DNA of 64,000 nucleotides from Escherichia coli (lineage in GTDB: Bacteria > Pseudomonadota > Gammaproteobacteria > Enterobacterales > Enterobacteriaceae). This document shows, one piece after another, positions 38,673 to 57,760 of the stretch. The notes below the pieces were generated by a model, which worked only from the letters and a program-made list of their open reading frames with translations, was not told the DNA's origin and searched no databases. Location of the stretch: the NCBI RefSeq assembly GCF_045037415.1, contig NZ_CP173438.1, one strand, 5' to 3'. Position numbers and translations under genes: made by a program. How positions within the stretch are numbered: the first letter of the stretch is position 1; each line of letters begins with the position of its first letter.

Positions 38673-39045
38673 CATTTGAAATAAACTAATTTCACCTGCG
38701 ATTTCGCATTATATTTTCTAATGCCACGAATTTTTGATTTAGTGTTTTTTGACATTTTTTTAGTTCTTAATGTTGTCTTATTCAAATTAACTTTCTCATC
38801 TATTTATCTTTATATAGAGATTTGTTCATTTTTTGGTTTTTTATTCTGTTACGATTTTGGCGTTTTTTAACCATAAGCTAATGTGATGATCAATTTTACC
38901 TTATGGTTAACAGTCTGTTTCGGTGGTAAGTTCAGGCAAAAGAGAACGATTGCGTTGGGGACCGGGAGTGGCTCCGATGCTGGGTTTCGTGGTGATAATT
39001 TCGCCATAGAAAAGTTGTCAGCCCCGCTTATTCAATGAGGACAAG

Positions 39046-55627: not shown

Positions 55628-55749
55628 AATTTCTCACATGTAATTCTGATCACTCATCATTATAGATAATAGAAGAGTGAAATGATTAACCAAGTGAGCG
55701 TTTATCGACAACCGCCCGTTTTGAGCGGATGTCGACAGGTAAAAACCAT

Positions 55750-55875
55750 TTAAAAAAGCAGCATCATATATTTGAAGCGACTTTCAATGGCCATTGCAAC
55801 ACAATCAGAAATGACAGGAATAGAGAGAGTAAAAAGCAACAGCAGACTGAATATAGCGCGCATTAAAAGATTCAT
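55750..55875 (-). CDS. Small hydrophobic protein (41 aa), single predicted TM helix
   Basis: ATG 2 nt after the uacT stop, with GGAG 7 nt upstream; translation MNLLMRAIFSLLLLFTLSIPVISDCVAMAIESRFKYMMLLF. Not in the ORF track because it is under 60 aa. Confidence 0.4.
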   Translation of the reverse strand: MNLLMRAIFSLLLLFTLSIPVISDCVAMAIESRFKYMMLLF

Positions 55876-55876
55876 A

Positions 55877-57325
55877 TTATTCTCCATGCTCATTTTTCTT
55901 CAGCTTGCGCATCAGAAGCCACATACGTACTGTCCTGACTTTTAAATCTTTATCAGAGACGGATTCCTTCACCAGGTCAGCATGATGCTGGTAGCCATTA
56001 AAGAAGACGTTCAGCACAACGGCGCTAAGGGTTGCGAGCATAATGCCGCTATGCAGCAACGGTTGCAGTACGGCCGGTAACTTAGAAAAGAAATCGTGAG
56101 AGAGCGTTGGCGTCATGCCAACACCGAGACTGATCGCCACAATATAGAGGTTGTAACGGTTAGTGGTGTAGTTACAGCGCGACAGAATTCGAATCCCTGT
56201 CGCCAGTACCATGCCGAACATCACCAGCCCCGCGCCGCCCAGCACAAATTGCGGAATGGAGGCGACCAGCACCGCCATTTTGGGCACCATGCCAAACAGG
56301 ATTAATATAATTCCCGAAGAAATACACACCCAGCGGCTGTGGACGCGCGTCACGCTGACCAGCCCGACGTTCTGCGAAAATGACGTATGTGGGAAGCTGT
56401 TAAACGTGCCTCCAATCATTGTCCCGACCCCATCTACGCGTAACCCACGAATAATGTCCTGGGAAGAGAGTTTGCGACCGACTATTTCACCCAGTGCCAG
56501 GAACATCCCCATTGACTCAATAAATACGATGATGAGTACTGCGGTCATGGTCAAAATGGAAACGGGATCGAAAATCGGCATACCAAATGACATCGGCGTG
56601 ACAATCGCAAACCATGAAGCATCATGTAGCCCGGATAAATTGACTTCATTCATCATCCACGAAAGTAAAAAGCCAAATACAATCCCCAGTAATACGGCGA
56701 CGTTGGACATAAATCCTTTCGCATAGCGAGTAATGAGCAAGATAAAAATTAAGACGGCAAAGGAGATACCTAAATAAACGGGATTACCATATTGCGGATT
56801 CCCTTTACCTCCGGCGGCCCAGTCAATACCCACCTGAATGATGCTAAGCCCGATAGAAGTAATCACCACACCGGTAACCAGTGGCGGGAATAAAGGCATC
56901 AAGCGACCGATAAGTGGCGCTAATAATGTGGTGATAAAACCCGCGGCGATAGTGGCACCGAATATCCCCAGCAGGCCGATATCCGGGTTCATACCAATGG
57001 CTATCATTGGTGTTACAGCGGCGAAGGTCACCGACATAATCACCGGCAGGCGGATCCCCATAAAGCGGCCGATACCGATACATTGCAATAATGTGACGAT
57101 CCCGCAGCAAAAGAGATCCGAGCTAATGAGCATCGCAATAGCTTCTTTTGATAGGCCGAGTCGGTCACCAATCATAAGAGGAACAGCGACTGCACCTGCG
57201 TACATGACAAGGACGTGTTGCAGACCGAGTATGATCAGCTTTCCTGGTGATAATATGCGGTCAACCTCATCAGTTGGGCGGTCTTGCCCAGAAGATGAGG
57301 GAAGTTGGGAATCTATGGCGCTCAT
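55877..57325 (-). CDS. uacT: Uric acid/xanthine-family permease (NCS2/NAT)
   Basis: 482 aa from MSAIDSQLPSSSGQDRPTDEV; NAT-family membrane protein. The track ORF starts 43 codons upstream. Confidence 0.9.
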   Translation of the reverse strand: MSAIDSQLPSSSGQDRPTDEVDRILSPGKLIILGLQHVLVMYAGAVAVPLMIGDRLGLSKEAIAMLISSDLFCCGIVTLLQCIGIGRFMGIRLPVIMSVTFAAVTPMIAIGMNPDIGLLGIFGATIAAGFITTLLAPLIGRLMPLFPPLVTGVVITSIGLSIIQVGIDWAAGGKGNPQYGNPVYLGISFAVLIFILLITRYAKGFMSNVAVLLGIVFGFLLSWMMNEVNLSGLHDASWFAIVTPMSFGMPIFDPVSILTMTAVLIIVFIESMGMFLALGEIVGRKLSSQDIIRGLRVDGVGTMIGGTFNSFPHTSFSQNVGLVSVTRVHSRWVCISSGIILILFGMVPKMAVLVASIPQFVLGGAGLVMFGMVLATGIRILSRCNYTTNRYNLYIVAISLGVGMTPTLSHDFFSKLPAVLQPLLHSGIMLATLSAVVLNVFFNGYQHHADLVKESVSDKDLKVRTVRMWLLMRKLKKNEHGE

Positions 57326-57760
57326 CAGTGTTTCTCCTTTCGCCCGCCAGAGTAAAAAGCAACCGTTTATGTTCATGAAACTGTCTAAACACATGCTCGT
57401 GGAGTGCCAGTTTTTGCGAGGAAGGGGAGTTAGAGACAGGAATTGCGGAGGCAATCACATAATCGTGGTTAAACCACGAAAATGAGAAGAGAACCTGACA
57501 ATGGAATTATCTGTAATTTTCTCATATTGATATTTCATTAATCATTCTGGCATGTCGCACTCTCGCATTTAATCGTTTTTATCTGGATAGCATTCTTTTG
57601 ATCGGCAATGTTGAAATAATGAAAGCGGCATAGATTGAGGGGCAATAATTTGAACTCAGTTGCAAAATTATAATTAAAACGGTCATGCTACCTAATATAT
57701 GCCCGTTTATTGCATCGCGAAATTTGAGAAGACATAACTCATTAAATGAAAGGGATGCAA

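What the first reader, a model, noticed from the sequence alone, without database searches (positions are those of the whole stretch)
55750..55875. Unlisted 41-codon hydrophobic ORF immediately downstream of uacT
An ATG 2 nt after the uacT stop, with a well-spaced GGAG, opens a 41-codon ORF encoding a single-TM peptide (MNLLMRAIFSLLLLFTLSIPVISDCVAMAIESRFKYMMLLF). It resembles the small membrane proteins often found translationally coupled to transporters and may modulate the upstream permease.
Basis: seen in the sequence. Interest (0 to 1): 0.3.

Follow-up and report, generated by a model that had tools for sequence, protein, structure and literature searches.

The report
Known small membrane protein gene yqfG
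The 41-codon ORF just after the urate permease gene uacT is real, but it is the already annotated E. coli small membrane protein gene yqfG; its function is still unknown, and the one modest new point is that relatives in several enteric genera always sit directly behind uacT.

Summary
On the minus strand, an ATG at 55875 lies one base after the uacT stop codon. A GGAG sits 6 nt upstream, and the ORF encodes the quoted 41-aa hydrophobic peptide.

It is not unlisted. It is yqfG (b4684, UniProt YQFG_ECOLI), annotated in K-12 and in nearly all complete E. coli genomes (5359 of 5426). Published work treats YqfG as a small inner-membrane protein of unknown function, predicted N-in/C-out. It is a robust substrate of the intramembrane protease RseP.

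My analysis shows purifying selection on this frame: dN/dS is 0.03-0.11 within Escherichia and 0.1-0.4 against Citrobacter-like sequences.

The family is wider than its naming suggests. It occurs in Escherichia, Citrobacter, Kluyvera, Klebsiella and Enterobacter. In every locus examined that reaches upstream, the gene sits immediately after a uacT-type permease, usually with a Shine-Dalgarno inside the permease's last codons.

Many uacT homologues lack it, plasmid-borne UacT alone raises urate uptake, and an AlphaFold fusion test gave no sign of docking.

Verdict: an already known gene; low interest, with a testable lead on UacT.

The parts
55750..55875 (-). yqfG coding sequence (41 codons plus TAA). 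It encodes a small hydrophobic single-helix protein.
   Evidence: ORF and translation. Annotated as yqfG at the same place in Nissle 1917 and K-12. The K-12 protein differs only by L3F. Purifying selection in this frame.
55882..55885 (-). Shine-Dalgarno GGAG for yqfG, lying inside the last codons of uacT, 6 nt before the ATG.
   Evidence: Sequence. Duplex energy -6.4 kcal/mol, against -1.9 and -1.0 for the two upstream in-frame ATGs. SD-like G-rich runs sit at the same place in Citrobacter, Klebsiella and Enterobacter loci.
55877..55879 (-). uacT stop codon (TAA), one base before the yqfG ATG; this is the coupling junction TAA-t-ATG.
   Evidence: The same 1-nt gap is seen in Escherichia and Citrobacter-like loci. 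Klebsiella and Enterobacter-like loci show an overlap or gaps of up to 5 nt. Kluyvera has a 66-nt gap.
55877..57325 (-). uacT (ygfU), the urate:H+ symporter gene upstream in the same orientation (482 codons).
   Evidence: Annotation in RefSeq records. Translation. The permease upstream of yqfG in every related locus whose gene calls were fetched carries Pfam Xan_ur_permease.
55703..55737 (-). Stable stem-loop 12 nt after the yqfG stop, with no U-tract. It is probably the 3' structure of the uacT-yqfG transcript. Its 3' arm contains the TTGTCG -35 hexamer reported for the idi promoter.
   Evidence: MFE -24.1 kcal/mol, z = -4.1. A hairpin of different sequence sits at the same place in all 12 orthologous loci folded. 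It was not called as an intrinsic terminator. idi promoter TTGTCG-18-AATCAT: PMC3946193.
55885..55893 (-). Two upstream in-frame ATGs (55893 and 55887), which would give 47- or 45-aa forms overlapping the uacT 3' end. These are disfavoured starts.
   Evidence: One search lists the 47-aa ORF. Anti-SD pairing is weak at both. Kluyvera, Klebsiella and Enterobacter homologues begin at the position that aligns with residues 1-4 of the 41-aa form.

Best explanation
Identity (shown, about 0.99): the ORF is yqfG (b4684). It is a known, conserved gene for a 41-aa small inner-membrane protein, lying between uacT and idi.

Anatomy (from sequence and model): one Arg near the N-terminus (R6) is followed by an apolar stretch of about 24 residues with an invariant Pro (P20). 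The tail is short and conserved, with an invariant Arg-Phe in the motif S-R-F-x-[FYW]-x-L-L-F. AlphaFold predicts a single helix.

Mechanism (inferred, about 0.4):
- yqfG is transcribed with uacT and translated by coupling. Ribosomes finishing uacT at TAA meet an ATG one base later, with a GGAG inside the last uacT codons. YqfG is therefore made only when and where the permease is made.
- It inserts N-in/C-out. Through its helix and periplasm-side tail it associates with the UacT urate permease as a dispensable accessory, tuning stability or activity.
- RseP cleaves YqfG within the membrane and so limits its level. This cleavage is shown in the literature with tagged constructs.
For: Identity:
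- 100% DNA match at a locus annotated yqfG in Nissle 1917 and other E. coli genomes; the K-12 b4684 protein differs at one residue, 40 of 41 identical.
- The exact protein is named 'protein YqfG' in NCBI and is seen on at least 1000 contigs.
- It is present in 5359 of 5426 complete E. coli genomes.

Real coding gene:
- dN/dS is 0.03-0.11 within Escherichia, 0.27-0.40 against Citrobacter-like sequences, and 0.10-0.22 among Citrobacter-like sequences.
- Synonymous changes are in excess, with P from 2e-5 to 0.06.
- The annotated frame has the lowest pN/pS of the three sense frames.

Membrane protein and RseP substrate:
- PMC4597795 and PMC10470546.
- YqfG is class I in that work: it is cleaved by plasmid-borne, chromosomal and purified RseP.

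Structure:
- AlphaFold gives one helix over residues 3-40, with pLDDT 89-91 over the first 20 residues.

Link to uacT:
- All 24 loci with a YqfG-family ORF have it right after the permease. Genus names come from record titles or source protein names: Escherichia, Citrobacter, Kluyvera, Klebsiella and Enterobacter.
- This holds although the downstream neighbour differs: idi, an AraC-type pair, a yngK-like gene, or an fdhF-like gene.
- The SD-in-permease and stop/start junction is conserved.
Against: Nothing contradicts the identity.

Against the UacT-partner mechanism:
- Of the 80 UacT-homolog loci fetched by similarity to the permease, 76 have no YqfG-like ORF. These include C. freundii (84% UacT identity), Pluralibacter and Serratia oryzae.
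- ygfU expressed alone from a plasmid increases urate uptake in E. coli Nissle (PMC9067508). That host does keep its chromosomal yqfG.
- In an AlphaFold model of UacT-(G4S)5-YqfG with 10 paired rows, the YqfG segment scored lower (pLDDT 60/57/53/42) than when modelled alone (89/91/84/68/51). This test is weak and gives no coordinates.
- Adjacent genes also stay together by descent alone.
- One Escherichia sp. assembly has a frameshifted uacT with an intact yqfG.
- No paper found here states a function for YqfG.
Confidence: 0.55

Rival explanations
1. YqfG is a real small membrane protein, but its target is not UacT. It would act on another membrane component, for example something tied to the anaerobic, formate-dependent urate-degradation cluster, or on envelope homeostasis through RseP. 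On this reading the adjacency to uacT reflects co-regulation or descent only.
For: No published function was found. In Klebsiella and Enterobacter the gene lies between uacT and an fdhF-like oxidoreductase, inside a purine/urate gene cluster. The AlphaFold fusion gave no docking signal. UacT alone is active.
Against: Its cytoplasmic part is only about 6 residues, so contact with soluble redox enzymes is unlikely. The one constant neighbour across four different downstream contexts is the permease.
Confidence: 0.28
2. YqfG is a signal-peptide-like pre-peptide. Residues 1-23 would act as a Sec signal, leader peptidase would cut after PVIS, and a 16-18-aa hydrophobic C-terminal peptide would be released. 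RseP would then only clear the leftover signal peptide.
For: The layout fits: an n-region with R6, a 13-residue h-region, and P20 followed by small residues at -3/-1 in Escherichia (V, S), Citrobacter (A, S) and one register of Kluyvera (V, A). The most conserved part is the tail. The authors of PMC4597795 chose YqfG because it resembles signal peptides.
Against: In the Klebsiella and Enterobacter members, and in unnamed metagenomic members, the aligned site has Q or R at -3 (AVQQA, AVRQA, LVQTA). That breaks the -3/-1 rule, so a cleavage site is not a conserved feature. Purified RseP cleaves YqfG made in vitro with no leader peptidase present. No signal-peptide predictor was available here.
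Confidence: 0.07
3. The peptide has no function of its own. Translation of the ORF would matter only in cis, for example by protecting the 3' end of uacT mRNA, or by setting expression of the next gene (idi in E. coli, fdhF-like in Klebsiella).
For: The ORF is tightly coupled to uacT. In E. coli a strong hairpin follows that overlaps the idi promoter -35. In Klebsiella it sits 12-25 nt before the next gene's start.
Against: Selection acts at the amino-acid level, and residues P20, R33 and F34 are invariant across sequences that are only 21-59% identical. A purely cis role would not preserve these.
Confidence: 0.07
4. It is a type I toxin-like small hydrophobic peptide (Hok, Ldr, Ibs or TisB style), controlled by an antisense transcript from the yqfH side.
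For: It is small and hydrophobic. A convergent overlapping ORF and hairpin lie at its 3' end. RseP also cleaves Hok toxins.
Against: There is a single copy per genome. It depends on uacT for its ribosome-binding site and has no promoter match of its own. No Rfam antitoxin RNA was found. It is conserved with the permease across genera. In the passages read, the RseP papers (PMC4597795, PMC10470546) report no toxicity on overexpression.
Confidence: 0.03

Closest known systems
E. coli K-12 YqfG (b4684, UniProt YQFG_ECOLI)
   Same: Same gene. Same position between uacT and idi, same length, 40 of 41 residues identical (L3F). It is named 'protein YqfG' in RefSeq for strains whose locus is 100% identical in DNA to the window.
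   Different: Only the allele differs: Leu3 here, as in Nissle 1917 and ATCC 11775, against Phe3 in K-12.
Small-protein partners of transporters: KdpF (KdpFABC), AcrZ (AcrB), MgtS (MgtA, PitA), SgrT (PtsG)
   Same: Under 50 aa with a single helix. It is encoded with a transporter gene in the same transcription unit, as kdpF is with kdpABC (my knowledge of these systems; synteny for yqfG).
   Different: No binding or functional effect on UacT has been shown. yqfG lies after the transporter gene rather than before it. It is absent from most UacT-type loci. The AlphaFold fusion test gave no support.
RseP (site-2 protease) small-membrane-protein substrates and remnant signal peptides (YkgR, YshB, Blr, HokB)
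   Same: YqfG is the founding small-membrane-protein substrate of RseP. It is class I: cleaved in vivo by chromosomal RseP and in vitro by the purified enzyme (PMC4597795, PMC10470546). It is predicted type II, has a short periplasmic tail, and has helix-weakening residues (S10, T16, S18, P20) in the hydrophobic stretch.
   Different: The physiological meaning of the cleavage is unknown, and the experiments used N-terminally tagged, plasmid-expressed constructs.
'Hypothetical protein' small ORFs after uacT in Klebsiella michiganensis/oxytoca, K. aerogenes, Enterobacter and Kluyvera
   Same: They are homologous at the profile level (E 1e-4 to 1e-10 against 1.8 billion representatives). They share R6, P20 and S-R-F and the same position and coupling junction.
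   Different: They are 38-42 aa and 21-36% identical. In the source names listed here they are not called YqfG. They are followed by an fdhF-like gene instead of a hairpin and idi.

Membership tests
YqfG (b4684) orthologue | Sequence identity to YQFG_ECOLI over the full length | tested here: met
   40 of 41 residues identical to K-12. The exact sequence is in NCBI as 'protein YqfG'.
YqfG (b4684) orthologue | Genomic position: same strand as uacT, directly after it and before idi | tested here: met
   RefSeq feature tables for Nissle 1917 and MG1655. Window ORF map.
Bacterial small membrane proteins (50 aa or fewer, single-pass) | At most 50 aa with one hydrophobic helix long enough to span the membrane | tested here: met
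   41 aa. A 17-residue uncharged run covers residues 7-23, and there are 24 residues between R6 and E31. The Kyte-Doolittle 11-residue maximum is 2.67. AlphaFold gives a single helix over 3-40. PMC4597795 reports a TMHMM type II prediction.
Bacterial small membrane proteins (50 aa or fewer, single-pass) | Protein actually made from the chromosome and found in the membrane | not testable with these tools
   PMC4597795 cites Hemm 2008 for the class of small membrane proteins. Hemm 2008 could not be opened, so chromosomal tagging of YqfG rests on my recollection of it. The legend of PMC4597795 Fig. 2-supplement 1 covers integral membrane association of HA-MBP-YqfG. No ribosome-profiling table was available.
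Small-protein accessory subunit or modulator of a transporter (KdpF, AcrZ, MgtS type) | Conserved genetic linkage or co-expression with the transporter | tested here: met
   In 24 of 24 loci with a YqfG-family ORF, the ORF lies right after the permease (its 3' end only, in L093), across four different downstream contexts. The stop/start junction carries an SD inside the permease.
Small-protein accessory subunit or modulator of a transporter (KdpF, AcrZ, MgtS type) | Physical association with the transporter | tested here: inconclusive
   In the AlphaFold model of a UacT-linker-YqfG fusion, pLDDT of the YqfG segment fell rather than rose. There were only 10 paired rows, and no coordinates or PAE were available.
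Small-protein accessory subunit or modulator of a transporter (KdpF, AcrZ, MgtS type) | Change in transporter activity or stability when the small protein is removed | not testable with these tools
   No experiment was found. Plasmid-borne ygfU alone raises urate uptake in a yqfG+ host (PMC9067508), which argues only against a strict requirement.
Sec signal peptide / secreted pre-peptide | n-h-c layout with small uncharged residues at -3 and -1, conserved in homologues | tested here: not met
   The rule is met in Escherichia and Citrobacter (V/A at -3, S at -1). Klebsiella, Enterobacter and unnamed homologues have Q or R at -3 in the aligned register. This was a rule-based check only; SignalP was not available.
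RseP (S2P) substrate | RseP-dependent intramembrane cleavage | not testable with these tools
   Literature only: class I substrate, cleaved by plasmid-borne, chromosomal and purified RseP (PMC10470546 Table 1; PMC4597795).
Type I toxin-antitoxin small toxin | Own promoter plus an overlapping antisense RNA, often in several copies | tested here: not met
   One copy per genome. No promoter match before it on its strand. No Rfam family reached its threshold. It relies on the uacT 3' end for its SD.

The most novel reading that the evidence does not exclude
The YqfG family would be a dedicated, translationally coupled accessory subunit of UacT-type urate permeases in Enterobacteriaceae. Its invariant Pro and Arg-Phe tail would contact the permease at the periplasmic face, and RseP would set its level. 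That would give a post-translational control point on urate uptake in gut bacteria. The homologues in Klebsiella, Enterobacter, Kluyvera and Citrobacter, at present listed as nameless hypothetical proteins, would be the same subunit.
Probability: 0.35. Interest if true: 0.45.

Novelty: already known. Interest (0 to 1): 0.15.

Why it matters
As a discovery it adds little: yqfG has been in the K-12 annotation for years and is a standard model substrate for RseP.

Two things have some value.

First, the gene still has no known function. The strict pairing with uacT, found here in at least five enteric genera, gives a concrete and cheap hypothesis: a partner of the urate permease.

Second, urate uptake by gut E. 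coli is now being engineered for hyperuricaemia therapy using ygfU alone (PMC9067508, PMC12629798). If YqfG tunes UacT stability or activity, including it or leaving it out would matter for those designs.

Tried and rejected
- Family libraries. Pfam, NCBIfam and PHROGs scans of YqfG and YqfH found no family; the best match was a chance ComGG hit at E = 0.2. A profile search of PDB sequences gave only chance matches to membrane helices, E >= 0.19.
- Rfam on the region. One sub-threshold hit (20.7 bits against a gathering score of 100), taken as chance.
- Terminator scan. It did not call the post-yqfG hairpin, because there is no U-tract.
- AlphaFold fusion of UacT and YqfG as a stand-in for a complex. 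There was no rise in confidence for YqfG, and it is uninformative without coordinates.
- Signal-peptide cleavage idea. It looked good from Escherichia, Citrobacter and Kluyvera but failed once the Klebsiella and Enterobacter members were aligned.
- OMP-like C-terminal strand idea. The tail has alternating hydrophobic residues, ends in Phe, and has a higher beta than alpha hydrophobic moment. I considered this a possible PDZ or DegS ligand but dropped it as untestable here. AlphaFold models the tail as a low-confidence helix.
- Leader peptide for idi. Rejected because the family keeps the permease as neighbour, not idi.
- Literature look-ups that failed. Hemm 2008, Hemm 2010, Fontaine 2011, the EcoSal small-proteome review, Yadavalli & Yuan 2022 and Papakostas & Frillingos 2012 are not held. 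No supplement was held for the ribosome-profiling preprint.

Full report
**1. Observation.** The feature is on the minus strand. Read 5'->3' on that strand, the sequence is ...AAT GAG CAT GGA GAA TAA t ATG AAT CTT.... The uacT stop (TAA) is at 55879-55877, followed by one spacer base, then an ATG at 55875. A GGAG lies at 55885-55882, 6 nt before the ATG.

Two further in-frame ATGs lie upstream, at 55887 and 55893; the latter opens the 47-aa ORF listed. They pair poorly with the 16S 3' end (-1.9 and -1.0 kcal/mol, against -6.4 for the 55875 start). Homologues in other genera begin at the position that aligns with the 41-aa form.

An ORF of this size is not unusual in itself: the window holds 146 ATG-ORFs of 35-60 aa. 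Its hydrophobicity is unusual, with GRAVY 1.44.

**2. What it is.** A megablast of the region against 5,426 complete E. coli genomes matched 5,391 of them, and the features under the match are 'yqfG: protein YqfG', uacT, 'protein YqfH' and idi.

- In Nissle 1917 (100% identical DNA) and in K-12 MG1655, the CDS yqfG occupies exactly this ORF. In K-12 it is b4684, YP_002791254.1, at 3032817-3032942.
- The K-12 protein differs by one residue, L3F.
- The exact window protein is in NCBI as 'MULTISPECIES: protein YqfG' on at least 1000 contigs, and the K-12 form is UniProt YQFG_ECOLI.
- The 126-nt ORF alone is present at >=95% identity and >=80% coverage in 5,359 of 5,426 genomes.

So 'unlisted' is wrong with respect to public annotation.

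**3. What is published.** From my own knowledge, yqfG is one of the small membrane protein genes added to the K-12 annotation after Hemm et al. 2008. I could not open that paper.

- Akiyama et al. 2015 (PMC4597795) cite Hemm 2008 for this class of proteins. They describe YqfG as a small membrane protein of unknown function, predicted type II (N-in/C-out). HA-MBP-YqfG is cleaved by RseP, and proline substitutions at residues 8-15 of its helix change that cleavage.
- A 2023 mBio study (PMC10470546) places YqfG in class I. It is cleaved by plasmid-borne, chromosomal and purified RseP.
- None of the papers I could search or open states a function or mentions a link to UacT.

**4. Is it under selection as a protein?** I collected orthologous DNA from E. 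albertii, a second E. coli lineage, two cryptic Escherichia clades, Citrobacter sp. R56, C. amalonaticus, C. enshiensis and two unnamed contigs.

- Nei-Gojobori dN/dS is 0.03-0.11 within Escherichia, 0.27-0.40 between E. coli and the Citrobacter-like sequences, and 0.10-0.22 among the latter.
- Synonymous changes are in excess in the pairs tested, with binomial P from 2e-5 to 0.06.
- The annotated frame has the lowest pN/pS of the three sense frames, and every orthologue keeps the frame open.

**5. A wider family, always behind uacT.** Word-based protein searches found YqfG only in Escherichia, and then in Citrobacter and Kluyvera. A profile search of 1.84 billion representatives found 30 hits at E <= 1e-3, including 38-45-aa proteins only 21-36% identical to YqfG. 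Source names place these in Klebsiella michiganensis/oxytoca/pasteurii, K. aerogenes and Enterobacter, all as 'hypothetical protein'.

- Synteny. In every context I could fetch, the small gene lies directly after a Xan_ur_permease gene. Where enough upstream sequence was held, that permease is itself divergent from a ygfT-like gene.
- Junction. The stop/start junction is an overlap or a gap of 1-5 nt, with a G-rich SD inside the permease's last codons. Kluyvera is the exception, with 66 nt, a hairpin and its own AGGA.
- Downstream neighbour. This varies: idi in Escherichia and Citrobacter, an AraC-type pair in L087, a yngK-like gene in Kluyvera, and a 715-aa fdhF-like molybdoenzyme in Klebsiella and Enterobacter.
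- Counts. A family HMM run on six-frame ORFs of all 100 fetched loci found the ORF in 24 loci, all in this position. Of the 80 loci fetched by similarity to UacT itself, 76 lack it, including C. freundii, Pluralibacter, Serratia oryzae, Morganella, Hafnia, Edwardsiella, Aeromonas and betaproteobacteria.

**6. Anatomy of the protein.**

- Family-wide invariant residues are P20, R33 and F34. R6, L14 and S32 are nearly invariant.
- The N-terminal hydrophobic stretch varies freely among apolar residues, and E. coli variants tolerate in-frame duplications there.
- The tail motif S-R-F-x-[FYW]-x-L-L-F is the best conserved part.
- About 24 residues separate R6 from E31, enough for one membrane span.
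- AlphaFold, with 16 sequences, gives one helix over residues 3-40. Confidence is high for residues 1-30 and low for the tail.

**7. Mechanism and its rivals.** The conserved junction makes co-translation with UacT the best-supported step, but this is inferred from sequence and not shown. The next step, that YqfG acts on UacT, rests on synteny alone.

Evidence against a required role:
- Most UacT-type permeases have no YqfG.
- ygfU alone boosts urate uptake when overexpressed.
- A UacT-linker-YqfG AlphaFold model gave lower, not higher, confidence for YqfG; this is a weak test.

Rival readings:
- A signal-peptide or pre-peptide reading fits the Escherichia and Citrobacter sequences. It fails the -3/-1 rule in Klebsiella and Enterobacter members.
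- A purely cis-acting ORF is hard to square with invariant residues at 21-59% identity.
- A type I toxin is unlikely. There is one copy per genome, no promoter of its own, no antisense RNA family, and the gene is bound to a permease.

**8. Surroundings.**

- A stable hairpin (55737-55703 on the minus strand; -24 kcal/mol, z = -4.1) follows the stop. A hairpin recurs at this position, with different sequence, in all 12 orthologous loci folded. Outside Kluyvera it has no U-tract.
- Its 3' arm carries the TTGTCG hexamer reported as the idi promoter -35 (PMC3946193).
- The annotated 23-aa yqfH (window 55682-55753, plus strand; PMC6001520) is encoded across this hairpin. It is truncated, altered or absent outside typical E. 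coli.

**9. Verdict.** Novelty: already known. Interest is low, with one useful lead: the UacT-YqfG pairing across Enterobacteriaceae.

Noticed in passing
window 55682-55753 (+): The annotated 23-aa gene yqfH (b4753; VanOrsdel 2018, PMC6001520) is convergent with yqfG, overlaps it by 4 nt, and is encoded across the post-yqfG hairpin. The ORF is truncated to 17 aa in cryptic Escherichia clades, has a different C-terminus in E. albertii, and is absent from one E. coli-lineage genome and from Citrobacter. Its conservation looks far weaker than that of yqfG.
   Followed up: partly
window 55703-55737 (-): A strong stem-loop lies after yqfG (-24 kcal/mol, z = -4.1). It has no U-tract, yet a hairpin of different sequence sits at the same spot in every orthologous locus folded. 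Its 3' arm contains the -35 hexamer reported for the idi promoter. Its role (3' end stabiliser, non-canonical terminator, or insulator for idi) is unknown.
   Followed up: partly
L094 4138-6285, L098 4141-6288, L099 4141-6938, L092 4145-4564: In Klebsiella and Enterobacter-like genomes, the uacT-yqfG pair is followed, 12-25 nt later, by a 715-aa fdhF-like molybdopterin enzyme. In some assemblies this gene is called in pieces that break at residue 139, as an in-frame TGA (selenocysteine) would produce. This suggests an operon of urate permease, small protein and formate-dehydrogenase-like enzyme.
   Followed up: no
L005 4444-4520 (Serratia oryzae): At the position where yqfG would lie, between uacT and the fdhF-like gene, there is only a short ORF starting MIRFWFAAALL. 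It then loses the family motif, so it may be a decayed remnant of a yqfG-like gene.
   Followed up: no
L090 1551-2999 (Escherichia sp. E2593 assembly): uacT carries a frameshift near its 5' end (4 stops in the expected frame), while yqfG downstream is intact. This could be a sequencing error or a case of yqfG outliving its permease.
   Followed up: no
window 38721-38870 (+): This is the most hydrophobic small ORF in the window (49 aa, GRAVY 1.54: MPRIFDLVFFDIFLVLNVVLFKLTF...). The region is in 5425 of 5426 E. coli genomes but mostly at only 90-95% identity, and a 'hypothetical protein' is annotated under it.
   Followed up: partly
window 55877-57454 (-): The mechanical ORF for uacT extends to a TTG at 57454 (525 aa), whereas the annotated start is the ATG at 57325 (482 aa). 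Homologues align from the annotated Met.
   Followed up: no
window 57200-57325 region; UacT residues ~455-482: The cytoplasmic C-terminal tail of UacT (KVRTVRMWLLMRKLKK...) is strongly conserved across Enterobacteriaceae, including species without yqfG. Its last codons double as the yqfG ribosome-binding site.
   Followed up: no
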